From the NCBI GenBank assembly GCA_021648085.1, contig JAKITS010000001.1, positions 816,064 to 880,063 of the forward strand: a stretch of 64,000 bases of DNA, read 5' to 3'. The stretch is from Candidatus Magasanikiibacteriota bacterium. Its GTDB lineage: Bacteria > Patescibacteriota > Patescibacteriia > Magasanikbacterales > UBA922. A program made the translations under genes and the position numbers. The notes beneath the pieces were generated by a model that saw only the letters and a list, made by a program, of their open reading frames with translations, did not search any database and was not told the DNA's origin. Positions 27,395 through 54,306 of this stretch are shown here, one piece after another (position 1 is the stretch's first letter; each line of letters opens with the position of its first letter).

Positions 27395-27667
27395 ACAAGA
27401 AATTAAAAAATAATGAACTATTTATGAAATTATCATATTTTTTGTTTTTTGTCAATCTTTTTGGATTAAATTTTGGATAAATTATAAAAATAAATATATT
27501 TATTCATTCCCACAACAAAAAAACAGCAATACTGCTGTTTTTGTGCCGCGTTCGAGGGTCTCCCTGTGTAGTTTTGGTTTTCACCAAACCTACCCTTCGA
27601 TTCCCGACATGACACAAGACTTTGTGTCATTCCCACAACAAAAAAACAGCAATACTGCTGTTTTTTG

Positions 27668-27752
27668 TGCCGCGGGCGGGAATCGAACCCGCACTCCTTT
27701 AGGGGGAACAGGATTTTAAGTCCTGCGTGTCTACCAATTCCACCACCGCGGC
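27668..27752 (-). tRNA. tRNA-Leu (UAA), copy 2
   Basis: minus-strand GCCGCGGTGGTGGAATTGGTAGACACGCAGGACTTAAAATCCTG + long variable arm + TTCGATTCCCGCCCGCGGCA; immediately followed by hairpin terminator 27640-27667. Confidence 0.85.
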
Positions 27753-28966: not shown

Positions 28967-29962
28967 TTACCAATCTAAACTTCCTGCGTTTTGGTATTCT
29001 GTCACTCTTGTTTCAAAGAAATTTTTTTCTTTTTTTAGGTCAATAATTTCACTCATCCACGGAAATGGATTTTGGTCATTATAAACTTTTGGTAAATTTA
29101 TTCGCTCCAATCTTCGGTCTGCAATGTGGCGAACATATTCTTTGATAATTTCTGGTTGTAATCCTAAAATTCCTCTTGGTAGGCAATCGTCAACATAAGC
29201 TTCTTCTAATTTTACAGCTTCTTGAATTGTATTTGAAACAGAATTTTTAAACGCTTCTGTCCAAATTTCTGGATTTTCAGAAATAATTGTATTTATCAAA
29301 TCCACTCCAAAAGCTAAATGTACAGATTCATCTCGCAAAATATATTGAAACTGCTCACCAACACCAACCATTTTGTTTTGGCGAAGTAGGGAAAGCATCA
29401 TCGCAAAACCAGCGTAAAAGAAAATTCCTTCCATTACAACATAATATCCAATCAAATCGTATACAAATTTTTGCATATTTTCCGTTGTGTTTGTCTCAAA
29501 ATTTGGATCAAAGATCGATGTTGTAATATTTACCACAAAATCATCTTTGGCTTTTATACTTGGAACAGTGATGTACATATTGTAAATTTCTTCTGGATCT
29601 AATCCCAAAGAATCACAACAATATATAAAAGTATCGGTGTGAACGGCTTCCTCGTATGCTTGGCGAAGTAGATATTGACGACATTCTGGATTTGTGACAT
29701 GTCTGTAAACTGCCAAAACGATATTATTTGCAGTCAAACTCTCGGCGGTAGAGAAAAATCCCAAATTCCACATTATCATTCTACGCTCTTCCTTGCTAAG
29801 TCCACCTTGTTTTTTCCAAAGCTCTACATCTTGTTGCATTGGTACCTCTTCTGGAACCCAATTGTTTGCAACACCAGCTTTGTAATGAACTCTTGCCCAA
29901 GGATATTGAAAGGGCAGTATTTTATTTGGATCGGTCGTTGAATTGTTTAATATACTTTTCAT
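28967..29962 (-). CDS. nrdB: ribonucleotide reductase class Ia beta subunit
   Basis: 331 aa; di-iron ligand motifs (EEAVHTDTF, ...EGIFFYAGFA...RDESVHLAFG) and radical tyrosine region. Confidence 0.9.
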   Translation of the reverse strand: MKSILNNSTTDPNKILPFQYPWARVHYKAGVANNWVPEEVPMQQDVELWKKQGGLSKEERRMIMWNLGFFSTAESLTANNIVLAVYRHVTNPECRQYLLRQAYEEAVHTDTFIYCCDSLGLDPEEIYNMYITVPSIKAKDDFVVNITTSIFDPNFETNTTENMQKFVYDLIGYYVVMEGIFFYAGFAMMLSLLRQNKMVGVGEQFQYILRDESVHLAFGVDLINTIISENPEIWTEAFKNSVSNTIQEAVKLEEAYVDDCLPRGILGLQPEIIKEYVRHIADRRLERINLPKVYNDQNPFPWMSEIIDLKKEKNFFETRVTEYQNAGSLDW

Positions 29963-29977
29963 ATTTTTTTATTTAAA

Positions 29978-30108
29978 CACATCATTCTAAACGAAATTGA
30001 AAGATCTCAAAAAAACTTAGAAGAAATACGAATATTTATAATTTTGGTTATATTATTTCGAGATATTTCGACTTCACTTTGTTTTGCTCAATATGATGTG
30101 TGTATTTT
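29978..30108. repeat. degenerate MITE-like copy in nrdA-nrdB intergenic spacer
   Basis: cacatcattctaaacgaaattgaaagatctcaa ... tcgagatatttcgacttcactttgttttgctcaatatgatgtg. Confidence 0.75.
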
Positions 30109-30157
30109 TTGTTTATCTTTTCCAATACTTAGTCTGCCCAATCGTTAGCGTGTTATT

Positions 30158-38749: not shown

Positions 38750-38778
38750 ATTAAATCAAAACACAAAAGGAGGGAATC

Positions 38779-38997
38779 GTGGCATATATTAATTACAGGG
38801 ATAGAGATGTTGAAGAGGTTCGAAGTGTCCTTCAGGACTTGTGTCACAGGGCAGAGTCTGAGCAAGAGCTTCGAACAGAACTTTATTTATTGTTCGGGAG
38901 CAGAGTAATATCTGTTCAGTGTATTCAAAATAAAAATCGACCAATGTTTATAGCAAAGGTGTGTAGCCCAATTTTGGGCAAGACTATCTCAACTTAA
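38779..38997 (+). CDS. hypothetical small protein (GTG start)
   Basis: 72 aa; RBS AAAGGAGGG 7 nt upstream of GTG. Confidence 0.35.
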   Translation: MAYINYRDRDVEEVRSVLQDLCHRAESEQELRTELYLLFGSRVISVQCIQNKNRPMFIAKVCSPILGKTIST

Positions 38998-39113
38998 AGT
39001 GTAAACAGTCTTTTTTAAAAAGGCTGTTTTTTTATTTCACAAAAAGTTATCAACACTCTCTTTTTTTATTTAAAAATGGTAAAATAATAATGCTAGATAT
39101 AAATCCATAAAGC

Positions 39114-41468
39114 TTGTCGGCTGTTATGAATCATCAGTTTGGAGATGAAACTATAGATTTTGTTTCTCTGGAGGAGGGGGAGATTAGCAAGAAATTAAAG
39201 GACTATAATATTGCCCTTACTTTTGAGGAAGGGAGAAAAATTCAACAAGATTTTTTAGGTAGAGCACCATACATTTCAGAATGCGTGCTTTGGTCTATTC
39301 AAGGTTCAGAACACTGCTCTTACAAGAGCAGTCGTTTATTTTTAAATCAGTATATTACCGATGGGCCAAATGTAATTTTGGGTCCAACTGAAGATGCTGG
39401 GATTATAGAAATTGCAAAAGATAAAAACGGAGGCAAATATGGTTTGGTAATAAGTCATGAGTCACACAACCATCCATCCCAGATTGTGCCTTATGAAGGT
39501 GCAGCAACTGGAATTGGTGGAAATGTCCGTGATGTCTCTTGTATGGGCGCAAAAGTAATTGCTGGAGCAGACGCACTTCGTTTTGGTGAGATAGAAAAAC
39601 AAAAAACAAAATATATTCAAAATGAGGTTGTAAAAGGAATTGCAGGATATGGAAATCCAATTGGTGTGCCAATAATTGCAGGCGATACCTATTTTAATAA
39701 AGGTTATAATGACAATTGTTTGGTAAATGTTGTTCATCTTGGAGTTTTGAAAGAGGATGAAATTATACATTCTAAAGCTCCAAAAAATGCAGACGGTTAT
39801 GATTTGATTTTGGTGGGAAAAGCAACTGATAACACAGGTTTTGGTGGGGCACAGTTTGCATCGCTAGAATTGGAAGAAGATAAAAAAGAACAAAATAAAG
39901 GGGCCGTACAAGAACCGAACGCATTTCTAAAAAAACACTTACTCAAAGCAACTCATACTTTGGTAAAAAAATTAAAAAAATTAAACTTATTGAATAGGGT
40001 TGGGCTCAAAGATTTGGGCGCTGGTGGAATTAGCTGTGCAGCAGTAGAATTGGCCGATAGCGCTGGATATGGAGTAGAAGTGGATATGGACAAAGTTCAG
40101 TTTGGAATGGAGGGTTTACACCCAACTGTGGCGCTTTGTTCGGAAACTCAAGAAAGATATATGTGGGTGGCATGTCCAATTGCGACGCCAATAATTTTGG
40201 AACATTACAACAAGATTTTTGAATTGCCAAAAATGGCAAAAAATGCAAAAGCAACCGTAATAGGGAAAATAAAAAATGGTGGACAATTTGTGGTGAAACA
40301 CAAAGGAAGAGATATAATAAATGCAAAAGCAAGTGATATTACAAAAGGTTTGCTTTATGAGAGAAAATATAAAAAACCAGAATTTACACTTAAAAAACCA
40401 AAAATAAAAAATGAAGGCGGTTTGAATCAGATTTTTTTGAAAATTTTATCGCACGAAAATATAGCTTCAAAAAAAGTAATTTACGAGAGATATGACAAGC
40501 AAGTTCAAGGTGCAACAGTTGTTGAGCCTGGCGAAGCAGATGCTGGCGTGGTCCAGCCATTTTTGGATACTGATTTTCCAGACGAGATAAAAAATGTTGG
40601 TGTAGCACTTTCTGTGGATCATAACCCCAGGTTTGGGCTTATAGATTCGTATTGGGGAGCAGTAAACGCTGTGGCTGAAGCTATGAGAAATGTGACGGCT
40701 GTTGGTGCTGTGCCACAAGCTATTACAAATTGCTTAAATTATGGAAATCCAGAAAAAGAAGAGCAGATGTTTCAATTTGTAGAAGGTATAAAAGGAATTG
40801 CAAGGACTTGTAAAAATATTCATTTAAAAAATCATCCAAATTCACCAATTCCAATTATTTCTGGAAATGTTTCACTTTATAATGAGTCTGATGATGGCGC
40901 TATTCCACCAAGTCCAGTCATTGCTTGCGTTGGAAAAATAGAAGATGTTTCAAAAGTTATAAAAATGAGCTTTAAAAAAACGGGAAGTAAAATTTTTATG
41001 GTTGGGAAGCGAAGAGAAGAGTGTGGTGGAAGTGTTTATTTTGATATTTTTGGTGAGCTTGGTGCGATTGTTCCAAAAGTAAACTTCAAAGAATTGGAAA
41101 ATCAAATTTTTGCAATGACAGACGCTATAGAAGGGCGTTTAATTTTAAGTGCACACGATATAAGCGATGGTGGAATTGCTATAGCACTTGCAGAAATGAC
41201 TTTTCAAAATGAAATTGGATGTGAGGTTGAAATAAAATCAGACTTTTCAAGTGATAGAATTTTGTTTGGTGAAACCGGAGGTTTTGTAATAGAAGTTTCA
41301 GAAGAAAATGAAAAGCAGTTAAAAGAAATTTTTACAGAAAGAAATACAGGTTTGTTTGAAATAGGAAAAACAATAAAAAGAAAGAGGATTTTGATAAATA
41401 AAAAAATTGAAATTGAACTGGAAAGCGCAAAAAATGCTTGGGAAAATGGATTGAGAAGTAAATTGTAA
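39114..41468 (+). CDS. purL: phosphoribosylformylglycinamidine synthase II (large subunit)
   Basis: 784 aa; PurL motifs (ISHESHNHPS, GIGGNVRDVSCMGAKVIA, duplicated AIRS-like domains). Confidence 0.9.
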   Translation: MSAVMNHQFGDETIDFVSLEEGEISKKLKDYNIALTFEEGRKIQQDFLGRAPYISECVLWSIQGSEHCSYKSSRLFLNQYITDGPNVILGPTEDAGIIEIAKDKNGGKYGLVISHESHNHPSQIVPYEGAATGIGGNVRDVSCMGAKVIAGADALRFGEIEKQKTKYIQNEVVKGIAGYGNPIGVPIIAGDTYFNKGYNDNCLVNVVHLGVLKEDEIIHSKAPKNADGYDLILVGKATDNTGFGGAQFASLELEEDKKEQNKGAVQEPNAFLKKHLLKATHTLVKKLKKLNLLNRVGLKDLGAGGISCAAVELADSAGYGVEVDMDKVQFGMEGLHPTVALCSETQERYMWVACPIATPIILEHYNKIFELPKMAKNAKATVIGKIKNGGQFVVKHKGRDIINAKASDITKGLLYERKYKKPEFTLKKPKIKNEGGLNQIFLKILSHENIASKKVIYERYDKQVQGATVVEPGEADAGVVQPFLDTDFPDEIKNVGVALSVDHNPRFGLIDSYWGAVNAVAEAMRNVTAVGAVPQAITNCLNYGNPEKEEQMFQFVEGIKGIARTCKNIHLKNHPNSPIPIISGNVSLYNESDDGAIPPSPVIACVGKIEDVSKVIKMSFKKTGSKIFMVGKRREECGGSVYFDIFGELGAIVPKVNFKELENQIFAMTDAIEGRLILSAHDISDGGIAIALAEMTFQNEIGCEVEIKSDFSSDRILFGETGGFVIEVSEENEKQLKEIFTERNTGLFEIGKTIKRKRILINKKIEIELESAKNAWENGLRSKL

Positions 41469-41782
41469 TTTTTCTTTTTTATCCTAACCTCCCGAACATT
41501 TGAAATTTTTGGACTAATTTATTTTTAAAACTTATGGTTTTCTGAGTATACAAAAAATAATTGAAGTAGCAAATGCGGTCAATTAAATAAGTTTTAAAAA
41601 TAAATTAAGCCTAAAATTGTCAACCGTTCGGCACTTTTATTTACCTTTTGGTGTCAAAAGGTAAGGTGAGAACATTTTTATGTTATCGTTAAAGAAGCTT
41701 TACTTAAATAACATGTTTAAGGGATTTCTCACTTTGTTCGAAATGAAAGAAGTCTAAAGCTTACAAGCTAATTTATAAATTT

Positions 41783-42823
41783 ATGACCATCACTTATGAA
41801 TTTTCCGGTGTAAATATAGATGTCGGAAATGAGGCTGTAAAAAGAATAAAAAATAAAGTTACGAGCACTTTTTCGCAATCTGTTTTGACTGGAATTGGCA
41901 GTTTTGGTGCTATGTATGATTTGAAAAATCTTTGTGAAAAATATAATAATCCAGTTTTGGTGCAAAGTATAGACGGAGTTGGCACAAAACTCATGATCGC
42001 AAAAATGATGAATAAATATGACACAGTTGGAGAAGACATTGTAAATCATTGTTGTGGTGATATTTTGACAATTGGCGCAAAACCACTAACTTTTTTGGAT
42101 TATATTGCCACCGCAAAAATGGATCCACAAATTATAGAAGATATTGTAAGTGGAATGGTGAGGGCTTGCAAAGAAAATGATATTTCACTTGTTGGTGGGG
42201 AAACTGCAGAAATGCCTGGAGTTTATGTAAATGGTGAAACAGATATTGCAGGTTCAATTACTGGAGTGGTAGAAAAAAATAAACAAATTATTGGAAAAAA
42301 CATAGAAGAAGGTGATTGTGTTTTGGGTTTTACCTCGAGCGGACTGCATACAAATGGATACTCATTGGCCAGAAAAATACTTTTTGAAGTTGGAGGTTTG
42401 AGTGTTCATAGTAATTTGTCGGAATTAGACAGAAGTTTGGGGGAAGTTTTGCTTGAGCCTCATAAAAATTATACAAAACCAGTGTTTTTACTTTTGAATT
42501 TTGGAATAAATATAAAAGGAATTGCACATATTACTGGCGGAGGAATGTTGGAAAATATTCCAAGAATTTTGCCAGAAAATTGTGCTGTAAAAATTCAAAA
42601 GGGAAGTTGGCAGGTTTTACCAATTTTTACTTTGATGCAAAAAATTGGAGGTGTTGTCGAGGAAGAAATGTACAGAACATTTAATATGGGTATTGGAATG
42701 GTTTTAATTTTATCAAAAAATGAAGTAGAAAATGCGATAAACTTAATAAATAAAAGTTTTCCTGATTATAAAATTTGTGAAATTGGAAAAGTAGTAAAAA
42801 GGGAAGGGCAAGTAATTTTATGA
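41783..42823 (+). CDS. purM: phosphoribosylformylglycinamidine cyclo-ligase (AIR synthetase)
   Basis: 346 aa; VQSIDGVGTKLMIA, GGETAEMPGVY motifs; stop overlaps next start (ATGA). Confidence 0.9.
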   Translation: MTITYEFSGVNIDVGNEAVKRIKNKVTSTFSQSVLTGIGSFGAMYDLKNLCEKYNNPVLVQSIDGVGTKLMIAKMMNKYDTVGEDIVNHCCGDILTIGAKPLTFLDYIATAKMDPQIIEDIVSGMVRACKENDISLVGGETAEMPGVYVNGETDIAGSITGVVEKNKQIIGKNIEEGDCVLGFTSSGLHTNGYSLARKILFEVGGLSVHSNLSELDRSLGEVLLEPHKNYTKPVFLLLNFGINIKGIAHITGGGMLENIPRILPENCAVKIQKGSWQVLPIFTLMQKIGGVVEEEMYRTFNMGIGMVLILSKNEVENAINLINKSFPDYKICEIGKVVKREGQVIL

Positions 42824-45543
42824 GAATAGCAATAATACAATTTCCTGGAAGTAACTGTGAAGCAGAAACAATAAGAGCAGTGAACAAAGCTGGAATGCAG
42901 GCTGAATCTGTTTTTTGGAATTGTAATTATGAAAAATTAAAAGAATACGATGGTTTTGTAATTGTCGGCGGATTTTCTTATGAAGACAGATCGCGCGCTG
43001 GGATTATTTCTGCACTCGATCCAATTATGAAAGTAATTTTTGAGGAGTCTGCAAAAGGTAAACCAATTTTGGGAATTTGTAATGGCGCCCAAATTTTGGT
43101 GGAAAGTGGTTTGGTGCCCGGAATTGAAAATAAAAAAGTTGCGCTTGCAATAAATCAGCAAATAAAAGAGGGGTATGTGGTGGGAACAGGATTTTTCAAT
43201 GATTGGGTAAATATAAAAGTGTCAGCAAAATGTGCATTTACAACTAATTTGAAAGAAGGAGAAATTTTGAGAATTCCTGTGGCGCACGCAGAAGGTCGTT
43301 TTGTTTTTCCGCTTATTTTTTTGAGTGAGTTGGAAGAGTCTGGATGCACAACTTTTAAATATTGTGATAGTAGTGGGGAAGTTAGAGATGATTTTCCTAT
43401 AAATCCAAACGGATCAATTGCAAATTTGGCAGCCATTTCAAATAAAGATGGAAATGTAATGGCAATAATGCCTCATCCAGAAAGATGTGAGGAAGGTCAG
43501 ATTATTTTTATTTCTATGCGAGAGTATATAAGACAAAATAAACAGAATTTTTTGAAATTTGCGGAGGTAAAAAATAATTTTCAGGAAAAAATTGAATTAA
43601 AAGAATACAAATTGCAAAAAAATAAGTATGAAATAATAGTGGAAGAAATAATTACAGATAACGAATCTTATACTGTGGAGCAAACATTAAAAAATTTGGG
43701 AATAAATGCAAAAATTTCAAAGCAAATTCATTGGGAGATTGAATGTGAAAATATTTCAAAAGAAGATTTAACTCAAACTGGTGAATTTTTTAACACAAAT
43801 AAGGAAAAATTGGCAGAAGAAAATTATGAAGATAATTTTCTGTTGGTTCAGTATAAGGATGATATTTACGGAGTAGAAAAAAAGGAAAATTTAGAGAAAA
43901 ACCATGGAATTATTGGTTTAAAAAAAATCAAAAAAGGAATTCTTTGGAATATCACTTTGGATAATAAAACAGAATTAAAATCAGTTTTGAAAACAGGTAT
44001 ATTTTATAATAAAAATTCACAAAATTGTTATTTATATTCAAAATCTATGAATAATTTTCCAATAAGCGGATACGCTTCAGATTTGTATAGTGAAATAATT
44101 AGTAAAAACATACATAATTATTTGTCAGATACAAACTTAAATCTTCAAAACAAGAAAAAAGGGAAAGTCCGCGATATTTATGATTTGGATAATAATTTAT
44201 TAATTGTAACTACAGATAGGCAAAGTGCTTTTGATAGGGTGTTAACGCATATTCCTTTCAAGGGACAAGTTTTAAATCAGACTAGTCTTTGGTGGTTTGA
44301 CCAAACTCAACATATTATTCCAAATCACATAATTCATAGTCCGGATTCAAATGTGATTTTGGTAAAAAAATGTGAACCGTTTAAAGTGGAGATCATTGTG
44401 AGAGGTTATATAACCGGAACGACGAGTACTTCTGCGTGGACAAATTATGAAAAAGGAATTAGAAATTTTTGTGGAAATTGCTTGCCAGAAGGAATGGTAA
44501 AAAATCAAAAATTTGAAGAGCCAATTGTCACACCAACCACAAAAGATGAGTACGATGAATCTATTTCAGCTAAGCAAATAGTAGAGAGGGGTTTGATGAG
44601 TCAGGAAGATTGGGATTATGTTTACAAAAAAGCATTAGAAATTTTTACTTTTGGACAAAGAATAGCCAAGCAAAATGGATTGATTTTAGTGGATACAAAA
44701 TATGAATTTGGAAAAGCACAAGATGGAACTATAATATTGATAGACGAAGTTCACACGCCGGACTCAAGTAGATATTGGATCGCTAGAACTTATGAGGATA
44801 GATTTGCGAGTGGACAGGAGCCAGAAAATATAGATAAGGAATTTTTGCGTTTGTGGTTTATTGAAAATTGTAATCCGTATGAAGATGAAAATTTACCAGA
44901 AGCACCAAAAGATTTAGTTGTAGAGCTTTCTCGTAGATACATTCGTTTGTACGAGATGATTACAGGAAAAGAATTTAAATTTCCAGATATGACTTTGAAT
45001 TTGCATAATAGAATTCAGGAAAATTTAAAAAAATATACTGCAAAAAAAGTGGAATCTACTTATGCAAATATTGGATTGGAAGAAATAAAAAGTGAAGAAA
45101 TTCATAAAGAAAAAATAAAGCCAGAAATTGAAAAAATAACTATAAAACCAAAAGCAATTTTAATTTTGGGTTCAATTTCAGACGAAGAATTTACAAAAAA
45201 TATTACAGATGAATTGGAAAAATACGGAATTAATTTTGAGCAATTTGTAGCTTCTGCTCATAAACAACCACGAGAAGTTTTACAGATTTTAGATAATAAT
45301 AAAGATAAAAAGCAGATAGTTTATATTACAATTGCGGGGCGTTCCAATGCTTTGTCTGGTTTTGTTGCTGGAAATTCTAGCTTTCCTGTGATAGCGTGTC
45401 CACCACTCAAAGATAAGTTTGATATGATGGTAAACATAAATTCATCTCTTCAAATGCCAAGTAATGTTCCGGTTTTGACAATTTTGGATCCAAAAAATAC
45501 AGCACTTGCGGTAAAAAGAATTTTTGATTTATGTGTGGAATAG
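42820..45543 (+). CDS. four-domain fusion: FGAM synthase glutaminase (PurQ) + PurS-like region + SAICAR synthetase (PurC) + class II AIR carboxylase (PurE)
   Basis: 907 aa single ORF; N-term MRIAIIQFPGSNCE...GICNGAQIL (PurQ triad Cys/His); middle PurS-like ferredoxin-like repeat(s); GKVRDIYDLDNNLLIVTTDRQSAFD (PurC); C-term ILGSISDE...SAHKQPRE...AGRSNALSGFVAGNSSFPVIACPP (class II PurE signature, like animal PAICS). Confidence 0.85.
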   Translation: MRIAIIQFPGSNCEAETIRAVNKAGMQAESVFWNCNYEKLKEYDGFVIVGGFSYEDRSRAGIISALDPIMKVIFEESAKGKPILGICNGAQILVESGLVPGIENKKVALAINQQIKEGYVVGTGFFNDWVNIKVSAKCAFTTNLKEGEILRIPVAHAEGRFVFPLIFLSELEESGCTTFKYCDSSGEVRDDFPINPNGSIANLAAISNKDGNVMAIMPHPERCEEGQIIFISMREYIRQNKQNFLKFAEVKNNFQEKIELKEYKLQKNKYEIIVEEIITDNESYTVEQTLKNLGINAKISKQIHWEIECENISKEDLTQTGEFFNTNKEKLAEENYEDNFLLVQYKDDIYGVEKKENLEKNHGIIGLKKIKKGILWNITLDNKTELKSVLKTGIFYNKNSQNCYLYSKSMNNFPISGYASDLYSEIISKNIHNYLSDTNLNLQNKKKGKVRDIYDLDNNLLIVTTDRQSAFDRVLTHIPFKGQVLNQTSLWWFDQTQHIIPNHIIHSPDSNVILVKKCEPFKVEIIVRGYITGTTSTSAWTNYEKGIRNFCGNCLPEGMVKNQKFEEPIVTPTTKDEYDESISAKQIVERGLMSQEDWDYVYKKALEIFTFGQRIAKQNGLILVDTKYEFGKAQDGTIILIDEVHTPDSSRYWIARTYEDRFASGQEPENIDKEFLRLWFIENCNPYEDENLPEAPKDLVVELSRRYIRLYEMITGKEFKFPDMTLNLHNRIQENLKKYTAKKVESTYANIGLEEIKSEEIHKEKIKPEIEKITIKPKAILILGSISDEEFTKNITDELEKYGINFEQFVASAHKQPREVLQILDNNKDKKQIVYITIAGRSNALSGFVAGNSSFPVIACPPLKDKFDMMVNINSSLQMPSNVPVLTILDPKNTALAVKRIFDLCVE

Positions 45544-48296
45544 TAGGGATTTATTCTCAAAAGTCAGTTTCATTGGATTTGTGTGATGCACTCATCCATC
45601 TTCAGCATAGGGGTACAGATGCTGGCGGTATGCTCACTTATGATTCTAGATTTCATACTAAAAAAGGAATGGGTTTGGTAAGAGATATCTTTAAAGAAAA
45701 TATCTTAAAAAATTTAACAGGAAATTGGGGGATTGCAAATAATAGATATACAACAACAGGATCTTCAAAAAAACTTTTCAATGTTCAGCCATTTAAAACC
45801 AGTTCTCCTTATGGAATTTCTTTGGTGCATAATGGAAATATTACAAATTCACAAGTATTAAAAAAAGAATTGGAAGAGCAAAATAAATATTATTGTAATT
45901 CTGAGTCTGATACAGAAATTATTTTGGGTTTGTTTGCATCTGAATTGCAAAAAAATAACGAAGGATTAGATTTTTTTGATAATTTGTGTAAATCAGTTGA
46001 GGCTGTTTTTGATAAAGCTTATGGAGGGTATTCAATTGTGGGAATTATCGCAGGAAAAGGAATGTTTGCTTTTAGAGATCCAAATGGAATCAGACCTTTT
46101 GTCTGGGGAAAAAGAGAAAATGAAAATGGACAAAGTGATTTCATTTTTTCTTCTGAAAATACAATGTATCATACTTTAAATTTTAAAATGCAGGGAAATG
46201 TTTTGCCTGGAGAAGTAGTTTTTATCAACAAAAAAGGTGAGATGTGCAGAAAACGTTTGCGAAAAGAAATTTTTACACCGTGTGCTTTTGAATATGTTTA
46301 TTTGGCAAGGCCGGATGCGGTGATAAATAGTATAAGTGTTTATAGAGCAAGACTTAGAATGGGAGATAATTTGGCAAAAAAATGGAAAAGATTTTATCCA
46401 GACATAACGCCAGATATTGTGATTCCTGTTCCATTTTGTGCAAATACTATGGCACTTTCTGTGGCACATATTTTGAAAGTTCGATATTCTGAAGGTTTGC
46501 ATAAGAATTCTTTTGTTGGGCGTACTTTCATAATGCCTGGACAAGAAAAGCGTAGAAAGTCTGTTTTACAAAAATTATCACCTCAAGAATTGGAAATTAA
46601 AGGTAAGAATGTAATGCTTGTCGACGATTCAATAGTTCGTGGGACAACAAGTAAAGAGGTAGTTAAAATGGTTCGAGGTGCTGGCGCAAAAAAAGTATAT
46701 TTTGTATCCGCTTCGCCACCTATAAAATATCCAGATTTTTATGGTATTGATATTTCCACCCAACAAGAATTGATTGCTGCAAACAAATCTATGGAAGAAA
46801 TACGCCAATTTATGGATGTAGATGTTTTACTTTATCAAGATATAGAAGATTTGACAGAAGCCATCACGAGAAAAGGAAATCACAGTATAGATAGACTTTC
46901 TATGCCATATTTTGATGGTTGGTATGTGACTGGAGTTGTAAATAAAATCCAAGAAAAAAAAGAAAAAAAAGTAAAAAAAATATTGATAGTTGGTTCTGGA
47001 GCGCGCGAACATGCAATTTTGCGAGCATTTTTGCGTTCAAAACAAAAAATTTCACTATATTGTTTTGGGACCAGTTTAAATATAGGAATAAAAAACTATT
47101 GTGTAGATTATATGGTTGGAAAAATGACTGACATAGGACAAATTTTGGATTTTGCGAAAAATAATAATATAGACCTTATAATTATTGGGCCAGAAATACC
47201 GCTGAATGCTGGACTTGCAGATTTGTTGTGGAAAAATAATATTCCAACTGTTGGTCCTACAAAAAAACTTGCACAACTTGAGACGAGTAAGTCGTTTACA
47301 AGAAAATTGATGGAAAAATATGGAATTAGCGGTCTTCCAAAATATAAAATTTTTAATTCGACAGAAGGAGTTGGGGAATTTCTATATGAATTGGATGGAA
47401 ATTATGTAATAAAAGTAGATGGATTGATGGGTGGAAAAGGAGTAAAAGTTTCTGGCGAACATTTGAAAAATTTTGAGGAAGCTTTGGAATATTGCAGAGA
47501 AATTATAAGTAAAAAAAGTAGTTTTGTAATAGAGGAAAAATTTATTGGTCAGGAATTTTCTTTAATGAGTTTTTCAGATGGGATAAATTTAGCACATATG
47601 CCAGTTGTACAAGATCATAAAAGAGCTTTTGAAAATGACAAAGGGCCAAATACTGGTGGAATGGGAAGTTATTCTTGTGCAGACCATTCACTTCCTTTTT
47701 TGACTGAGAAAAATGTTCAAAAAGCAAAAGGAATTACGCGTTCAATTTTGAATGCATTAAAAAAAGAATTTGGTGAATTGTATAAAGGAATTCTGTATGG
47801 CGGATTTATGGTTACAAAGAATGGTATAAAAGTAATAGAATATAATGTTCGTTTTGGTGATCCAGAATCTCTGAATGTTCTAAGTCTTTTAGAGTCAGAT
47901 TTTGTAGAAATTTGCGAAGGGATAACGAGTGGAAGGTTAGATAAGTGCGATATAAATTTCGCAAAAAAAGCTACTGTTTGTAAATATGCTGTACCAATTG
48001 GATATCCAACAAAACCCGTAAAAGGAGAAAAAATTGACATTTCCGAGGTGAAAAATCAAGAAAATTTATATTTGGCTTCTGTGGATTTGTTAAATGGTGA
48101 TTTAATTGAAATAGGATCGCGTACTACAGCATTTGTGGGAATTGCGAATACAGTTTTTGAGGCTGAAAAAGAAGCAGAAAGTGAAATTCAAAAAATAAAA
48201 GGTCCGCTTTTTCACAGGAAAGACATTGGAAAAGAGGAAACTATAGAAAACAAAATTAAATTTATGGAAAAAATATGCAATCAGAAAAAAAACTAA
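45531..48296 (+). CDS. fusion: amidophosphoribosyltransferase (PurF) + GAR synthetase (PurD)
   Basis: 921 aa; N-term MCGIVGI Ntn-amidotransferase, PRTase motif VMLVDDSIVRGTTS; from about aa 480 KKILIVGSGAREHAIL and ATP-grasp (PurD). Confidence 0.9.
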   Translation: MCGIVGIYSQKSVSLDLCDALIHLQHRGTDAGGMLTYDSRFHTKKGMGLVRDIFKENILKNLTGNWGIANNRYTTTGSSKKLFNVQPFKTSSPYGISLVHNGNITNSQVLKKELEEQNKYYCNSESDTEIILGLFASELQKNNEGLDFFDNLCKSVEAVFDKAYGGYSIVGIIAGKGMFAFRDPNGIRPFVWGKRENENGQSDFIFSSENTMYHTLNFKMQGNVLPGEVVFINKKGEMCRKRLRKEIFTPCAFEYVYLARPDAVINSISVYRARLRMGDNLAKKWKRFYPDITPDIVIPVPFCANTMALSVAHILKVRYSEGLHKNSFVGRTFIMPGQEKRRKSVLQKLSPQELEIKGKNVMLVDDSIVRGTTSKEVVKMVRGAGAKKVYFVSASPPIKYPDFYGIDISTQQELIAANKSMEEIRQFMDVDVLLYQDIEDLTEAITRKGNHSIDRLSMPYFDGWYVTGVVNKIQEKKEKKVKKILIVGSGAREHAILRAFLRSKQKISLYCFGTSLNIGIKNYCVDYMVGKMTDIGQILDFAKNNNIDLIIIGPEIPLNAGLADLLWKNNIPTVGPTKKLAQLETSKSFTRKLMEKYGISGLPKYKIFNSTEGVGEFLYELDGNYVIKVDGLMGGKGVKVSGEHLKNFEEALEYCREIISKKSSFVIEEKFIGQEFSLMSFSDGINLAHMPVVQDHKRAFENDKGPNTGGMGSYSCADHSLPFLTEKNVQKAKGITRSILNALKKEFGELYKGILYGGFMVTKNGIKVIEYNVRFGDPESLNVLSLLESDFVEICEGITSGRLDKCDINFAKKATVCKYAVPIGYPTKPVKGEKIDISEVKNQENLYLASVDLLNGDLIEIGSRTTAFVGIANTVFEAEKEAESEIQKIKGPLFHRKDIGKEETIENKIKFMEKICNQKKN

Positions 48297-50524
48297 AAAT
48301 TGGAGTTTTGGGTTCAACTCGCGGAACGAGTATGCAGCCTATAATAGACGCAATCGAACAGAATTTGTTGAAGGCATCTGTAGAATTGGTTGTTTCTAAT
48401 GTTGAAAATGCTTTTATATTAAAAAGAGCAAGAATGTGTGGAATAGCCGCAACATACATAAATGATTTTGGGAAAAATCGTGAAGATTATGATAAAGAGG
48501 TTTCAAAAATTTTTGAATCTTTTGAGGTTGATTTGGTTTTATTGATTGGATATATGAAGATATTATCCCAATTTTTTGTTCAGAAATGGGCTGGAAAAAT
48601 TATGAATGTCCACCCTTCACTTTTACCAGCTTTTACAGGAAAAATGGATGAACAAGTTCATTACGATGTCTTAGTTTCAGGAGATAAAGAGAGCGGTTGT
48701 ACAATTCACTTTGTAGATGAGGGGGTAGATTCTGGCGACATAATCATACAAAAAAAGTGTTCAGTTTTGTCGCACGATACAGTAATTTCTCTGAAAGACA
48801 AAGTTCAGAAATTGGAGGGCAAAGCTTTCATAGAAGCAATAAAAGAATTTGCGAATGGTAGTATTTTATCTTACAATAGTGAGGTTCAAGATCAAATACA
48901 AAATAGGAGTGTGGAGATGTGTGGAAAAACAGCCCTTTTGTCAGTTTACAATAAAACAGATATAGATATTTTTGCGCGCAAACTTATTTATCTTGGTTGG
49001 AAAATTGTAGCTTCTGGCGGAACAGCAAGATTTCTAAAAGAGCGGGGAATTGAAGTTCAGGATGTTGCAGATTTTGTTGGAGGCGGGGCAATTTTAGGGC
49101 ATAGAGTTGTGACATTGGATAGAAAAATCCACGCAGCACTTTTGTCTAAAGATTTGCCAGAAGATAACGAAGAGCTAAAAAGACTTGGTGTACCAAAAAT
49201 TGATTTGGTTTGTGTGGATCTTTATCCCTTGGAAGATGAGATCTCTTCTGAAGGAAGTACACAAGAATCTGTAATAGAAAAAACTGATATTGGCGGGCCG
49301 ACACTGCTCCGCTCCGCCGCAAAAGGTAGAAGAATTGTTGTTTGTGATTTTGAAGATAGAGACAAAACGTTGAAATGGCTTGCGATGGGTAAACCATACG
49401 AAAATAAGTTCATTACAAATTTGGTTGCAAAAACCGAAGAGATTGTTGCTAGATATTGTCTAATTTCTGCAAATTTTCATAGTGAAGGAAAAATAAAAGG
49501 AATAGTTGGTTTTGAGAGGCAAAAATGTGGTTATGGTGAAAATGCACAACAAAAAACAGCAAGTTTGTTAACTTACAAAAATAACGATCCTTTGAGTTTT
49601 AATAATTTTAAACAGGTTCGTGGTGTGCCAATGAGTTATAATAATTGTTGTGATGTAGATAGAATGGTTCAAACAATAACCCATATCGCAGCTGGTTTTG
49701 ATATAAATTTTGGCGAGGTTCCCTTTATTGCAGTTGCTGTAAAACACGGAAATCCATGTGGTGTAGCAATTGGAGAAGACAAGAAAATAGTTCTACAAAG
49801 AGTAATTGACGGTGATCCACGTGCAATTTTTGGAGGAATGATTATGACAAATTTTTCATTGGGTGTAAATGATACTGAGGTTATTTTAAACTATAAAATG
49901 GAAAAAGGAGGCAATAGACTTTTGGATGGGGTGGTTGCGCCTGCAATAGATGAAAATACAAGAGATTTACTAAAAAGACGAACTGGGCGTTGTAGAATGG
50001 TAGAAAATCCAGCTTTAGCAGAAATGTATTCAGGCAGTTTGGATAAAAATCCTAGGTTTCGTTATGTGAGAGGGGGATTTTTGCTGCAAGATAATTATGA
50101 TTTTGTAATGAATTTTACAAATACAGTAATTGAAAAACAAGGTATTATTTCAGAAGACATTGAAAAAGATTTAATTCTAGCTTGGGCTATTGGTTCAACA
50201 AGTAATAGTAACGCAATAACTTTGGTAAAAAACAGAATGTTGATTGGAAATGGTGTTGGTCAGCAAGATAGAGTTGGGGCTTGTGAACTTGCTATCAAAA
50301 AAGCCACAGACCAAGGACATTTGATTGTGGATTCCGTAGCTTATAGTGATAGCTTTTTCCCATTTTTAGATGGACCAGAAAAACTGTATGAAAGTAGAGT
50401 TAAAGCAATTCTAACTTCTAGTGGGTCTGTGCGAGATAAAGATCTGAAAGATTTTTGTCTAGTAAATGGAATTACACTTTATATGATCCCGGATAAAATA
50501 GGCAGAGGTTTTTTTGGACATTAA
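48275..50524 (+). CDS. fusion: GAR transformylase (PurN) + bifunctional AICAR transformylase/IMP cyclohydrolase (PurH)
   Basis: 749 aa; N-term KIGVLGSTRG...HPSLLPAFTG (PurN), then MGS-like LLSVYNKTDI...ASGGTARFLKERGI and AICARFT domain (PurH). Confidence 0.9.
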   Translation: MQSEKKLKIGVLGSTRGTSMQPIIDAIEQNLLKASVELVVSNVENAFILKRARMCGIAATYINDFGKNREDYDKEVSKIFESFEVDLVLLIGYMKILSQFFVQKWAGKIMNVHPSLLPAFTGKMDEQVHYDVLVSGDKESGCTIHFVDEGVDSGDIIIQKKCSVLSHDTVISLKDKVQKLEGKAFIEAIKEFANGSILSYNSEVQDQIQNRSVEMCGKTALLSVYNKTDIDIFARKLIYLGWKIVASGGTARFLKERGIEVQDVADFVGGGAILGHRVVTLDRKIHAALLSKDLPEDNEELKRLGVPKIDLVCVDLYPLEDEISSEGSTQESVIEKTDIGGPTLLRSAAKGRRIVVCDFEDRDKTLKWLAMGKPYENKFITNLVAKTEEIVARYCLISANFHSEGKIKGIVGFERQKCGYGENAQQKTASLLTYKNNDPLSFNNFKQVRGVPMSYNNCCDVDRMVQTITHIAAGFDINFGEVPFIAVAVKHGNPCGVAIGEDKKIVLQRVIDGDPRAIFGGMIMTNFSLGVNDTEVILNYKMEKGGNRLLDGVVAPAIDENTRDLLKRRTGRCRMVENPALAEMYSGSLDKNPRFRYVRGGFLLQDNYDFVMNFTNTVIEKQGIISEDIEKDLILAWAIGSTSNSNAITLVKNRMLIGNGVGQQDRVGACELAIKKATDQGHLIVDSVAYSDSFFPFLDGPEKLYESRVKAILTSSGSVRDKDLKDFCLVNGITLYMIPDKIGRGFFGH

Positions 50525-50527
50525 AAA

Positions 50528-50556
50528 ATAAAATCGATGTACTAACATCGATTTTT
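50528..50556. terminator. bidirectional intrinsic terminator after pur operon / PAS gene
   Basis: aaaatcgatgtactaacatcgatttttt. Confidence 0.8.
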
Positions 50557-53175: not shown

Positions 53176-54306
53176 ATGTTTGCAAAAAACAAAGCTAATT
53201 TAATAGGTTTGGTTTACAAAAAGGTTTTTAAGCCTGTTTTTTTTCGTCTAGATCCAGAATTTGTACACGATAGATTTATAAAAGTAGGAAACCTTATGGG
53301 TAAATGCAAGGTTGCAAAATTTTTTACAAGAAATCTTTTTGATTATAAAAATTCTGCACTTCAGCAAAATATTTTAGATATTAATTTTGAGAATCCAATT
53401 GGACTTTCTGCAGGTTTTGATAAAAATGGAAAATTGATAGATATTTTAGGTGGTGTTGGTTTTGGTTTTATGCAAGTTGGAACTATTACAAATGAATATT
53501 ACAAAGGAAACCCAAAACCAAGATTGCATAGACTTATAAAATCCAAAGCACTGATTGTTTATTATGGTTTAAAAAATGATGGAGTAGAAAAAATTATAGA
53601 AAGACTAAAAAAATCCAAAAAAACTAATTTTGTAAAAGGAATTTCAATAGGAAAGACAAATTGTACAAGAACAGCAGGACTTGATGCTGGAGTAGAAGAT
53701 TATTTTGAGTGTTATAAAAAGGTTTTGGAAAGCGGGGTTGGAGATTTTTATACTTTAAATATTTCTTGTCCAAACACTTTTGGTGGCGAACCTTTTACAA
53801 AACCAGAAAAATTATTAAAACTTTTAGAGAAAATTTATTCTATTCAAAGCAAAAAACCTATTTTTTTGAAAATGCCAATAAATTTACCGTGGGTTGAGTT
53901 TGAAAAACTTTTGGAAATAATAGTCCAATACAAAATAAACGGAGTAATAATCGGAAATTTAAATAAAAATTTTCAAGATAAAAGCTTGAAAGATAAAATT
54001 TCAGAAAATATGAAAGGAGGAATAAGTGGAAAACCTACAAAAAAACTTTCAAATGAATTAATTTCCAAAACTTATAAAAAATACGGAGATAATTTGGTAA
54101 TTGTGGGTGTTGGTGGAATTTTTTCTGCAGAAGACGCTTATGAAAAAATAAAACTAGGTGCATCTTTGGTACAATTAATAACAGGAATGATTTTTGAAGG
54201 ACCACAATTAATAGGAAAGATAAATATAGAATTGGTTAAGCTTATGAAAAAGGACGGATTTGAGAAAATTTCTCAAGCTGTTGGGGTTTCACATAAAAAG
54301 ACTTGA
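53176..54306 (+). CDS. pyrD: dihydroorotate dehydrogenase (quinone-type/class 2-like)
   Basis: 376 aa; N-terminal extension, NPIGLSAGFDKNG, TIGVGGIFSAEDAYEKI motifs. Confidence 0.85.
   Translation: MFAKNKANLIGLVYKKVFKPVFFRLDPEFVHDRFIKVGNLMGKCKVAKFFTRNLFDYKNSALQQNILDINFENPIGLSAGFDKNGKLIDILGGVGFGFMQVGTITNEYYKGNPKPRLHRLIKSKALIVYYGLKNDGVEKIIERLKKSKKTNFVKGISIGKTNCTRTAGLDAGVEDYFECYKKVLESGVGDFYTLNISCPNTFGGEPFTKPEKLLKLLEKIYSIQSKKPIFLKMPINLPWVEFEKLLEIIVQYKINGVIIGNLNKNFQDKSLKDKISENMKGGISGKPTKKLSNELISKTYKKYGDNLVIVGVGGIFSAEDAYEKIKLGASLVQLITGMIFEGPQLIGKINIELVKLMKKDGFEKISQAVGVSHKKT

What the first reader, a model, noticed from the sequence alone, without database searches (positions are those of the whole stretch)
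45531..50524. Additional pur fusions (PurF-PurD and PurN-PurH) in a tightly overlapped five-gene operon encoding 10 of 11 de novo IMP steps
purL, purM, purQSCE, purFD and purNH have overlapping stop/start codons (42820/42823, 45531/45543, 48275/48296), indicating translational coupling. PurF-PurD and PurN-PurH fusions differ from the canonical bacterial separate genes and from the animal GART (PurD-PurM-PurN) arrangement. Only purB (adenylosuccinate lyase) is missing from the cluster. For an AT-rich small-genome-like organism, which often lose nucleotide biosynthesis, an intact compacted purine pathway is notable.
Basis: partly seen in the sequence, partly recalled or inferred. Interest (0 to 1): 0.6.

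Follow-up and report, generated by a model that had tools for sequence, protein, structure and literature searches.

The report
Fused purine-synthesis genes in a CPR bacterium
A tiny-genome bacterium (Candidatus Magasanikbacteria) really does pack nine of the ten enzyme activities for making the purine precursor IMP into five genes, including a rare, undescribed fusion of the first two enzymes (PurF-PurD), which hand over an unstable intermediate.

Summary
Window 45531-48296 encodes an in-frame PurF-PurD protein (921 aa) and 48275-50524 a PurN-PurH protein (749 aa). They follow purM and a PurQ-(PurS-like)-PurC-PurE gene with 4-, 13- and 22-nt overlaps.

Two details are wrong:
- purL is separated from purM by 314 bp, so five genes are not all overlapped.
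- PurE is class II and needs no PurK, so the cluster covers 9 of 10 activities, not 10 of 11. purB is absent from the 64-kb window.

The fusions are not frameshift artefacts. An independent assembly (79-84% aa identity) has both, with dN/dS of 0.11-0.16 in all four domains.

The organism is a Candidatus Magasanikbacteria MAG (CPR), a group usually said to lack nucleotide synthesis.

PurF-PurD is rare: about 20 clusters at 90% identity and 4 of the best 150 hits among 1.84 billion representatives. It arose at least three times, and no paper I could search describes it. The orthologous fusion already sits, unremarked, in public Magasanikbacteria and Patescibacteria records.

PurN-PurH has a described partial precedent in Halobacteria. 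Here it joins PurN to a divergent, CPR-specific PurH that replaced the canonical one.

Verdict: real, a new variant of a known kind (multifunctional purine enzymes), of moderate interest.

The parts
39003..39029 (+). Terminator-like hairpin ending the upstream small ORF (38779-38997). It marks the 5' boundary of the pur transcription unit.
   Evidence: Terminator scan; ORF with an AAGGAGG ribosome-binding site.
39126..41468 (+). purL (small-type FGAM synthase subunit, step 4). The ORF opens at TTG 39114; ATG 39126 is the likelier start.
   Evidence: NF002290 PurL, 691 bits, cutoff 648; 59% identical to PurL of the Rifle Magasanikbacteria cluster L086; start context.
41504..41618 (.). Inverted repeat (32-nt arms, 91% complementary, 51-nt loop) inside the 314-bp purL-purM spacer. 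Function unknown.
   Evidence: the only two copies in the window are its own two arms.
41783..42823 (+). purM (AIR synthetase, step 5). Its stop overlaps the next start as ATGA.
   Evidence: TIGR00878, 383 bits; junction sequence.
42820..45543 (+). purQ-(purS-like)-purC-purE fusion, 907 aa. PurQ aa 1-226 (42820-43497); tandem PurS-like region aa 227-432 (43498-44115); PurC aa 433-742 (44116-45045); class II PurE aa 780-907 (45157-45540).
   Evidence: for PurQ, PurC and PurE; for the class II assignment; for the weak PurS signal.
45531..46934 (+). PurF domain of the PurF-PurD fusion (aa 1-468, step 1). It has the N-terminal MCGIVG nucleophile and the VMLVDDSIVRGTTS PRPP motif. Three of the four Cys positions conserved in relatives, which I take from memory to be the [4Fe-4S] ligands, are lost.
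   Evidence: TIGR01134, 407 bits; invariant columns; model matches E. coli PurF with target TM-score 0.87-0.93 at 45-46% identity.
46935..46973 (+). Inter-domain linker (about aa 469-481, ...NKIQEKKEKKVK...), predicted flexible.
   Evidence: pLDDT below 50 for residues 469-479; variable length in the alignment; dN/dS 0.26.
46974..48296 (+). PurD domain (aa 482-905, step 2) plus a short C-terminal tail and stop. The last 22 nt overlap purN-purH.
   Evidence: TIGR00877, 422 bits; model matches GAR synthetases with target TM-score up to 0.91.
48275..48865 (+). PurN domain of the PurN-PurH fusion (aa 1-197, step 3), with the N-x-H (MNVHPSLLP) and Asp (DEGVDSG) catalytic motifs.
   Evidence: TIGR00639, 178 bits; translation; 51-59% identical to PurN of L086 and L001.
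48866..48925 (+). PurN-PurH linker (about aa 198-217).
   Evidence: Alignment A4; dN/dS 0.22.
48926..50524 (+). PurH domain (aa 218-749, steps 9 and 10), made of an MGS-like IMP cyclohydrolase part and an AICAR transformylase part. It is the divergent CPR-type clade: HRVVTLDRKIH in place of RVKTLHPxVH, with KHGNPCG kept.
50530..50555 (.). Bidirectional terminator-like hairpin 6 nt after the purN-purH stop; 3' end of the unit.

Best explanation
These are genuine, selected, in-frame gene fusions in the de novo purine cluster of a Candidatus Magasanikbacteria (CPR/Patescibacteria) genome.

What is encoded:
- purF-purD encodes one polypeptide that carries out steps 1 and 2: PRPP plus glutamine gives phosphoribosylamine (PRA), and PRA plus glycine plus ATP gives GAR.
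- purN-purH encodes one polypeptide that carries out step 3 and steps 9-10, which include the two 10-formyl-tetrahydrofolate-dependent transformylations, plus IMP cyclohydrolase.
- With purL, purM and purQ-(S)-C-E(class II), the unit supplies 9 of the 10 activities of the PurK-independent route to IMP. Only adenylosuccinate lyase (purB) must be encoded elsewhere.

How the fusions arose (inferred from the gene order of relatives): the stop codon and spacer between genes that were already neighbours were lost. The ancestral cluster, still seen in Rifle Magasanikbacteria, is folD-purA-purL-purM-purQS-purC-purE-purB-purFD-purN-purH-guaB-guaA. In this lineage purB left the cluster, QS fused with C and E, and the canonical purH was replaced by the CPR-specific purH paralogue, which then fused to purN.

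How they work (inferred, not shown): each fusion forces 1:1 co-expression. In PurF-PurD a short flexible tether of about 11-13 residues keeps the consumer of the labile intermediate PRA next to its producer, giving proximity channelling. The overlapping stop/start codons, with no Shine-Dalgarno sequence before purFD and purNH, suggest termination-reinitiation coupling along purM to purNH.
For: Fusions are real:
- Single stop-free ORFs with complete domains on both sides.
- The same two fusions occur in an independent assembly (Logan SRR22387796; L084 84% and L083 79% aa identity).
- Between the two organisms dS is about 0.7-1.0. dN/dS is 0.11 (PurF), 0.16 (PurD), 0.16 (PurN), 0.12 (PurH) and 0.22-0.26 in the linkers.
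- PurF-PurD is also a called 931-aa gene on at least 6 contigs from Rifle samples (L086/L087) and in NCBI assemblies L001 and L002.

Fold: the AlphaFold2 model has mean pLDDT 87.6, only residues 469-479 between the domains fall below 50, and pTM is 0.53, so no fixed orientation is predicted. The halves match E. coli PurF and GAR synthetases. No PDB chain covers both halves; query TM-score is at most 0.48.

Catalytic motifs are kept.

Host: MCF6277027.1, Candidatus Magasanikbacteria.

Ancestral gene order and stepwise fusion.

PurH displacement: 58% identity to the stand-alone CPR PurH in L088, against 31-33% to the canonical PurH in the related clusters.

Class II PurE: and the His-Lys (human) versus His-Arg (class I) difference noted in PMC10484210.

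Rationale for PRA transfer: a transient PurF-GAR synthetase interaction has been reported in vitro (Rudolph & Stubbe 1995, as cited in PMC8988938).

Recurrence: PurF-PurD fusions fall in at least 3 separate clades in both the PurF and the PurD neighbour-joining trees.

Boundaries: terminator-like hairpins bracket the unit.
Against: - No enzymology or expression data exist. Channelling and translational coupling are inferences.
- pTM 0.53 gives no evidence that the two active sites face each other.
- Related clusters also fuse non-consecutive steps: PurA-PurM in L001, PurC-PurD in P0246, PurF-PurM in P0304, and QS with CE here. Gene adjacency, not chemistry, may therefore decide what fuses.
- Fused and unfused PurF proteins are interleaved in the tree, so the fusion is easily gained or lost.
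- purB was not found. It is absent from the window, and a PurB profile search listed no protein from the 984-kb contig among its best 120 hits. Pathway completeness is unproven.
- The PurH domain is divergent, and the canonical Lys of the RVKTLHP cyclohydrolase motif is replaced.
Confidence: 0.78

Rival explanations
1. The fusions are real but selectively neutral by-products of genome streamlining. In a deletion-biased, compact CPR genome, stop codons and spacers between adjacent co-transcribed genes are lost, and the result is tolerated because the domains fold independently. There is no channelling advantage.
For: - Many different partner combinations occur in related clusters, including non-consecutive steps: PurA-PurM, PurC-PurD and PurF-PurM, a PurF-PurD-PurN triple (P0003), and QS-CE here.
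- Fused and unfused forms are interleaved in the trees.
- The linkers are short and variable, and no fixed inter-domain geometry is predicted (pTM 0.53).
Against: - PurF-PurD arose at least 3 times and persists across relatives only 49-60% identical.
- It is the one fusion shared by nearly all members of the clade, while the other junctions vary.
- It joins exactly the pair for which transfer of an unstable intermediate has been reported (PMC8988938, citing Rudolph & Stubbe 1995).
Confidence: 0.3
2. The long ORFs are assembly or sequencing artefacts: a frameshift or missed stop merged adjacent purF/purD and purN/purH genes in one MAG.
For: In some relatives the genes are adjacent but separate. 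L003 has a 100-bp gap, L055 a 20-bp gap and L006 a 4-bp overlap in another frame. A single indel could therefore mimic a fusion.
Against: - Independent assemblies from other samples carry the same uninterrupted ORFs.
- The frame is preserved across about 0.7 synonymous substitutions per site, with linker dN/dS 0.22-0.26.
- The linker region aligns across 16 group-1 fused sequences.
Confidence: 0.02
3. The cluster is a decaying or partial pathway. purB has been lost, PurH is a divergent paralogue with another role, and the organism still depends on host purines. The genes would serve only partial conversions, such as salvage of intermediates.
For: - purB is absent from its ancestral slot between purE and purF and from the whole window, and was not recovered by the profile search.
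- The CPR-type PurH normally stands alone, far from any pur genes, in a conserved maf-GNAT-purH-DUF3048 context. It must have a role outside de novo synthesis there.
- CPR bacteria are generally described as lacking nucleotide synthesis (PMC12455944).
Against: - All ten domains are under purifying selection with intact motifs.
- There are no internal stops.
- Fusing the CPR PurH to PurN argues that it works in the same pathway (a Rosetta-stone argument).
- The search showed only the best 120 of at least 8000 hits and was swamped by Marinimicrobia sequences, so the absence of purB is not established.
- Peribacteria show that CPR bacteria can have complete nucleotide pathways (PMC4736985).
Confidence: 0.1

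Closest known systems
Orthologous PurF-PurD proteins in public Magasanikbacteria and Patescibacteria assemblies (P0004/L086 from the Rifle aquifer; P0008/L002, GCA_004321885.1, named only 'amidophosphoribosyltransferase'; P0007/L001, GCA_900089805.1)
   Same: Same domain order, same clade, 55-64% identity, and the same position in a syntenic pur cluster.
   Different: In those clusters purB sits directly upstream and PurN and PurH are usually separate. PurH is fused only in L001, and there it is a canonical PurH. PurC and PurE are separate or only pairwise fused. The window has the most condensed version. None of these records is described in a paper I could find.
Halobacterial PurN-PurH1 fusion (Brown et al. 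2011, Biol Direct, PMC3261824)
   Same: GAR transformylase is fused to AICAR transformylase. These are the two folate-dependent formyl transfers of the pathway.
   Different: The halobacterial protein has only the AICAR transformylase half (PurH1), and IMP cyclohydrolase is supplied by PurO. Here a full-length PurH, cyclohydrolase plus transformylase, follows PurN. The PurH is a CPR-specific divergent clade and the origin is independent.
Eukaryotic multifunctional purine enzymes: GART (PurD-PurM-PurN), PAICS (PurC plus class II PurE), ATIC (PurH), and the purinosome concept
   Same: Several pathway steps sit on one polypeptide. The window's PurC-PurE(class II) module has the same order and the same PurE class as PAICS. 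The PurD domain's best non-fused relatives include GART-length proteins.
   Different: The partner combinations F-D, N-H and Q-S-C-E are not the eukaryotic ones. PurF (PPAT) is a separate protein in animals.
Transient PurF to PurD transfer of phosphoribosylamine in E. coli (Rudolph & Stubbe 1995, cited in PMC8988938 and PMC10912719)
   Same: The same two enzymes and the same labile intermediate. The fusion would make the proposed encounter permanent.
   Different: In E. coli the enzymes are separate and no stable complex is known. Here they are covalently tethered. Whether channelling occurs is untested.

Membership tests
PurF, glutamine PRPP amidotransferase (TIGR01134) | Whole-domain match above the curated cutoff | tested here: met
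   407 bits against a cutoff of 350, aa 2-451.
PurF, glutamine PRPP amidotransferase (TIGR01134) | N-terminal Cys nucleophile directly after the initiator Met, glutaminase residues (Arg/Tyr about 72-73, Asn101-Gly102, Asp127) and the PRPP-binding acidic motif DDSIVRGTT | tested here: met
   MCGIVG at the start. C2, R72, Y73, N101, G102, D127 and D365-S374 are invariant in 21 fused sequences. The roles of these residues are from my memory of E. coli PurF.
PurF, glutamine PRPP amidotransferase (TIGR01134) | Fold | tested here: met
   The model's N-terminal half matches E. coli PurF (1ecb, 6czf, 8w7d) with target TM-score 0.87-0.93.
PurD, GAR synthetase (TIGR00877) | GARS_N, GARS_A (ATP-grasp) and GARS_C domains in order, above the cutoff | tested here: met
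   422 bits against a cutoff of 288, aa 483-903. All three Pfam domains are present. Fold match to GAR synthetases with target TM-score up to 0.91.
PurN, GAR transformylase (TIGR00639) | Match above the cutoff, plus the catalytic Asn-x-His and Asp | tested here: met
   178 bits against a cutoff of 150. MNVHPSLLP and DEGVDSG are present. Residue roles are from memory of E. coli PurN N106/H108/D144.
PurH, bifunctional AICAR transformylase/IMP cyclohydrolase (TIGR00355, NF002049) | Score above the equivalog cutoffs | tested here: not met
   307 bits against 528, and 343 against 402. Both Pfam domains (MGS, AICARFT_IMPCHas) do pass their own cutoffs. The protein is therefore a PurH-family member of a divergent subfamily, not a canonical equivalog.
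PurH, bifunctional AICAR transformylase/IMP cyclohydrolase (TIGR00355, NF002049) | Transformylase Lys-His pair (KHxNPCG) and cyclohydrolase motifs (SGGTA, RVKTLHP, LYPF, DIGGP, AAK) | tested here: inconclusive
   KHGNPCG, SGGTA, DLYPL, DIGGPT and SAAK are kept. RVKTLHP is replaced by HRVVTLDR throughout the CPR clade. The functional weight of that Lys is from memory and was not tested.
Class II PurE (AIR carboxylase, PurK-independent) | Closer to characterised class II than to class I enzymes; Lys rather than Arg after the catalytic His | tested here: met
   3rg8/3rgg at 4e-25 (which I recall, from memory and not from the tool output, as the Treponema denticola class II PurE), and PAICS chains 4ja0/2h31 at 1e-18 to 1e-19, against 1e-5 for E. 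coli class I. SAHK motif. The R-to-K difference is stated in PMC10484210. No PurK-like ORF was seen in the cluster or among the window ORFs of at least 120 aa annotated.
PurS (PF02700) in the upstream QSCE fusion | Significant match to the PurS profile or fold | tested here: inconclusive
   - The window segment gives no Pfam hit at E up to 10.
- The L002 orthologue hits PF02700 at E = 0.0019, 18.7 bits, below the 22.2 cutoff.
- hhalign to a bona fide PurS gives E = 0.017 at the TDPEG motif.
- The PDB profile search found nothing.
- The single-sequence model is unusable, pLDDT 31.
Halobacterial-type PurN-PurH1 fusion | PurN fused to the AICAR transformylase half only, with no cyclohydrolase domain | tested here: not met
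   The window protein contains the MGS-like cyclohydrolase domain (aa 233-343) between PurN and the transformylase. It is an analogue, not a member.
Complete de novo IMP pathway | Adenylosuccinate lyase (PurB) present in the genome | not testable with these tools
   - Absent from the window.
- The rest of the 984-kb contig is not held.
- The genome is not among the GTDB representatives scanned and is not in the gene-position index.
- The PurB profile search did not list a protein from it among the best 120.

The most novel reading that the evidence does not exclude
PurF-PurD is a natural, recurrently evolved tether for the labile intermediate phosphoribosylamine. It is one component of a five-polypeptide bacterial counterpart of the eukaryotic multifunctional purine enzymes. 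The window lineage also recruited the widespread 'orphan' CPR PurH paralogue into de novo synthesis by fusing it to PurN. That fusion acts as a Rosetta stone, assigning a purine-pathway, formyl-folate-dependent function to a protein family that many Patescibacteria carry without any other pur genes. If so, many CPR bacteria may salvage AICAR/ZMP-type intermediates from hosts.
Probability: 0.3. Interest if true: 0.6.

Novelty: new variant of a known kind. Interest (0 to 1): 0.42.

Why it matters
1. Whether PurF hands phosphoribosylamine directly to PurD has been argued since the 1990s on kinetic grounds only. A natural covalent PurF-PurD enzyme, which arose several times, gives a tractable protein for testing that idea by kinetics and cryo-EM.
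2. It documents a near-complete purine pathway condensed into five genes in a CPR bacterium, a group usually described as unable to make nucleotides. This refines ideas about how dependent such organisms are on hosts.
3. The stepwise series of related clusters, from unfused through F-D only to F-D, N-H and QSCE, is a clean natural example of operon neighbours turning into multidomain enzymes.
4. The PurN fusion gives a functional hint for a large family of divergent, mostly 'hypothetical' PurH-like proteins in Patescibacteria.

None of this overturns known biochemistry. All the domains are well-known enzymes.

Tried and rejected
- Riboswitch or leader control of the operon: rejected.
  - Rfam found only tRNAs at gathering thresholds and nothing credible at E up to 10 upstream of purL or in the purL-purM spacer.
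  - The structured-looking stretch 38765-39040 (fold z-score -3.1) is better explained as a 72-aa ORF with a strong AAGGAGG site followed by its terminator.
- Locating the source genome:
  - Exact-protein look-ups failed for the window's PurF-PurD and PurN-PurH proteins.
  - The first GTDB scan found nothing.
  - Identity came instead from a 100% protein hit.
- Locating purB: tblastn of the window was negative. The PurB profile search was swamped by Marinimicrobia sequences, so this is unresolved.
- Proving PurS in the upstream fusion: the Pfam, PDB-profile, hhalign and single-sequence AlphaFold attempts gave only weak or unusable signals.
- Alternative genetic code: the PurF-PurD ORFs of the window's close relative L084 and of L001 keep the same stops, so code 25 is not needed for them. 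In-frame TGA codons between purF and purD in L004 and L021 hint that those contigs may use another code. Not pursued.
- Using the AlphaFold model to judge active-site proximity: pTM 0.53 and no access to coordinates, so nothing can be concluded.
- The spacer inverted repeat as a repeated mobile element: no other copy in the window.
Full report
**What is in the sequence**

On the + strand there are long ORFs at 39114-41468, 41783-42823, 42820-45543, 45531-48296 and 48275-50524. Pfam and NCBIfam assign them as follows:
- PurL (small type).
- PurM.
- PurQ + an unassigned 200-aa segment + PurC + PurE.
- PurF (aa 2-451, TIGR01134, 407 bits against a cutoff of 350) + PurD (aa 483-903, TIGR00877, 422 bits against 288).
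- PurN (aa 8-196, TIGR00639, 178 bits against 150) + an MGS-like/AICARFT PurH (aa 218-737).

The PurF start is fixed by chemistry. The protein begins MCGIVG, so the Cys nucleophile directly follows the initiator Met.

Two points of the observation fail.
- purL ends at 41468 and purM starts at 41783. The 314-bp spacer holds an inverted repeat with 32-nt arms (41504-41535 and 41587-41618). Only four genes are overlapped.
- There is no PurK, and the PurE domain is class II.
  - Its best solved relatives are 3rg8/3rgg (E = 4e-25), which I recall as the Treponema denticola AIR carboxylase, and the PAICS chains 4ja0 and 2h31 (E = 1e-18 to 1e-19). E. coli class I PurE scores only 1e-5.
  - It carries SAHK, where class I enzymes have His-Arg. 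PMC10484210 states this Arg-to-Lys difference for human PurE.
  - The pathway in question therefore has ten activities and the cluster supplies nine.

The 'PurS' segment is only weakly supported:
- An orthologue hits PF02700 at E = 0.0019, below the cutoff.
- hhalign to a true PurS gives E = 0.017.
- The PDB profile search found nothing.
- The single-sequence model was unusable.

Terminator-like hairpins at 39003-39029 and 50530-50555 bracket the unit.

**Whose genome it is**

The window's PurN-PurH protein is 100% identical to MCF6277027.1, 'phosphoribosylglycinamide formyltransferase [Candidatus Magasanikbacteria bacterium]', on a 984,181-bp contig. The window also carries:
- dnaA, dnaN and rnpA.
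- A class I ribonucleotide reductase.
- pyrD.
- EF-P with an EpmA-like gene.
- Type IV pilus genes.

GC content is about 33% throughout. So the host is a CPR/Patescibacteria bacterium. Such organisms are generally described as lacking nucleotide synthesis (PMC12455944), with Peribacteria as a published exception (PMC4736985).

**Are the fusions real?**

Yes.
- A related organism in an unrelated data set (Logan SRR22387796) has a 904-aa PurF-PurD (84% identity, L084), preceded by an overlapping PurC-PurE end exactly as in the window. It also has a 750-aa PurN-PurH (79% identity, L083).
- Codon-level comparison gives dS of about 0.7-1.0. dN/dS is 0.11 (PurF), 0.16 (PurD), 0.16 (PurN), 0.12 (PurH) and 0.22-0.26 for the linkers.
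- PurF-PurD is also a called 931-aa gene on at least six Rifle-aquifer contigs (L086/L087). It is a stop-free ORF in two NCBI assemblies (L001, L002).
- An AlphaFold2 model built on 21 fused sequences has mean pLDDT 87.6. Only residues 469-479 between the domains fall below 50, and pTM is 0.53.
- The two halves of the model match E. coli PurF (target TM-score 0.87-0.93, 45-46% identity) and GAR synthetases (up to 0.91). No PDB chain spans both.
- Catalytic and binding motifs of PurF, PurD, PurN and the transformylase Lys-His of PurH are conserved.

**How common, and how did they arise?**

Against 5.8 billion clustered proteins, about 20 clusters are full-length PurF-PurD: 15 at 49-84% identity and 5 at 36-38%. 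Against 1.84 billion 50%-identity representatives, only 4 of the best 150 hits span both domains.

Neighbour-joining trees of the two domains place the fusions in at least three separate clades. Within the window's clade, fused and unfused PurF proteins are interleaved. These are rough trees.

In GTDB representatives several relatives have adjacent but separate purF and purD (L003, L006, L054, L055).

Gene order in relatives gives a series:
- L003: purL-purM-purQS-purC-purE-purB-purF-purD-purN-purH, with only Q-S fused.
- L086 and L002: folD-purA-purL-purM-purQS-purC/E-purB-purFD-purN-purH-guaB-guaA.
- L001: PurA-PurM, PurC-PurE, PurF-PurD and PurN-PurH.
- The window: purB gone from its slot and QS+C+E, F+D and N+H fused.

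Other combinations exist elsewhere: a PurF-PurD-PurN triple (P0003), PurC-PurD (P0246) and PurF-PurM (P0304).

The window's PurL, Q, C, E, F, D and N are 51-73% identical to those of L086. Its PurH is different:
- It is only 31-33% identical to the canonical PurH of the related clusters.
- It is 58% identical to a CPR-specific PurH that normally stands alone in a conserved maf-GNAT-purH-DUF3048 neighbourhood, far from any pur genes.
- That clade shares HRVVTL(S/D)R in place of the canonical RVKTLHP motif. It falls below NCBIfam's PurH cutoffs, so NCBI often names its members 'hypothetical'.
- PurN fused to this PurH type is seen only in the window and its close relative. L001's PurN-PurH uses a canonical PurH and is therefore an independent fusion.

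**Mechanism**

Shown: one polypeptide carries complete PurF and PurD domains joined by a flexible linker of about 11-13 residues. Another carries PurN, an IMP cyclohydrolase-like domain and an AICAR transformylase domain. Both are conserved under purifying selection.

Inferred:
- The fusions arose by loss of the stop codon and spacer between operon neighbours.
- They enforce 1:1 stoichiometry.
- PurF-PurD keeps the consumer of phosphoribosylamine next to its producer. This fits the transient PurF-GAR synthetase interaction reported in vitro (Rudolph & Stubbe 1995, cited in PMC8988938).
- PurN-PurH brings together the two formyl-tetrahydrofolate-dependent steps.
- The overlaps, together with the lack of a Shine-Dalgarno sequence before purFD and purNH, suggest termination-reinitiation coupling.

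The main rival is that the fusions are neutral products of genome compaction. The variety of partner combinations, including non-consecutive steps, speaks for this. The recurrence and deep retention of F-D specifically speak against it.

Whether the pathway is complete is open. purB is not in the window and I could not reach the rest of the genome.

**Comparison with what is known**

- Multifunctional purine enzymes are classical (GART, PAICS, ATIC). The window's PurC-class II PurE module has the PAICS architecture.
- A PurN-PurH1 fusion is described in Halobacteria (PMC3261824), but it lacks the cyclohydrolase domain and is unrelated in origin.
- For PurF-PurD I found no description in three full-text searches, and no solved structure. 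The library does not cover all journals.
- The orthologous fusion is already in public records, annotated simply as amidophosphoribosyltransferase.

**Verdict**

The finding is real and largely as described, with corrections: four genes overlapped rather than five; nine of ten activities with a class II PurE; a divergent PurH that displaced the canonical one. It is a new variant of a known kind. Interest is moderate. The main value is a natural PurF-PurD tether for testing phosphoribosylamine channelling, an unusually condensed purine pathway in a CPR bacterium, and a functional hint for the orphan CPR PurH family.

Noticed in passing
window 48926-50521; loci L088 10001-11596 and L089 10001-11611: The window's PurH domain belongs to a large Patescibacteria-specific clade (more than 100 of the 120 listed hits, 53-61% identity, often named 'hypothetical'). 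In other genomes it is a stand-alone gene in a conserved maf-GNAT-purH-DUF3048 ... rpsL-rpsG-fusA neighbourhood with no pur genes nearby. Its role there is unexplained; AICAR/ZMP salvage is one guess.
   Followed up: partly
window 41469-41782: The 314-bp purL-purM spacer contains a long AT-rich inverted repeat (32-nt arms, 51-nt loop) and a second perfect 10-bp hairpin (41641-41664). No Rfam match and no other copy in the window. In relatives the same spacer holds unrelated small ORFs: a PD-(D/E)XK gene in L003 and a 134-aa ORF in L086.
   Followed up: partly
window 38779-38997: A 72-aa ORF with a strong AAGGAGG ribosome-binding site and its own terminator (39003-39029) lies directly upstream of purL. 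Its family was not searched. The region folds better than shuffles (z = -3.1). An extended -10-like TGgTAAAAT follows at about 39078.
   Followed up: partly
window 45531-46934 (PurF domain); alignment A1: The window's subclade (window, P0001-P0007, and unfused P0243) has lost three of four conserved Cys positions. These are presumably the [4Fe-4S] ligands of the B. subtilis-type enzyme: SxCPP became SASPP and PCMAC became LSMPY. Sister fused proteins P0008-P0015 keep them. The enzyme has apparently become cluster-free, like E. coli PurF.
   Followed up: partly
window 41783-42823 versus L086, L002, L001, L003: PurM is also mosaic. The window's PurM is 60% identical to that of L001 and L003 but only 30% identical to that of the Rifle Magasanikbacteria (L086) and L002 clusters. 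Cluster members therefore have different histories.
   Followed up: no
L004 3193-3195 and L021 4035-4037: In contigs labelled Anaerolineae and Treponemataceae, purF and purD are in the same frame, separated by a single TGA. With TGA read as sense, L021 gives one ORF through PurF-PurD-PurM. Possible explanations are an alternative genetic code with mis-binning, or read-through.
   Followed up: no
proteins P0003, P0246, P0304; L001 4778-7129: Other unusual purine fusions in metagenomes: PurF-PurD-PurN (1101 aa, possibly continuing past the contig end), PurC-PurD (769 aa), PurF-PurM (915 aa) and PurA-PurM (783 aa).
   Followed up: no
L003 (JACNKV010000078.1, labelled Candidatus Neomarinimicrobiota): A Marinimicrobia-labelled contig carries a syntenic, unfused pur cluster whose proteins are 54-68% identical to the window's (PurH excepted, 31%). 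Its PurB is typical of Marinimicrobia. This suggests horizontal transfer of the cluster between CPR and Marinimicrobia. The PurF half is otherwise closest to Gammaproteobacteria, and the PurD half to methanogen and eukaryote-type enzymes.
   Followed up: no
window 12919-16942: dnaN and dnaA (- strand) and rnpA (+ strand), with low GC (28-30%) at 14-18 kb. This is the probable replication origin region. GC skew is positive over the stretch holding the pur cluster, about 25 kb away.
   Followed up: no
window 27313-27395 and 27667-27752: Two tRNA-Leu(UAA) genes lie about 270 bp apart on the - strand.
   Followed up: no
window 28967-32917 and 53176-54306: A class I ribonucleotide reductase (large subunit with two ATP-cone matches, plus small subunit) and dihydroorotate dehydrogenase. 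These are further nucleotide-synthesis genes, consistent with an organism that makes its own nucleotides.
   Followed up: no
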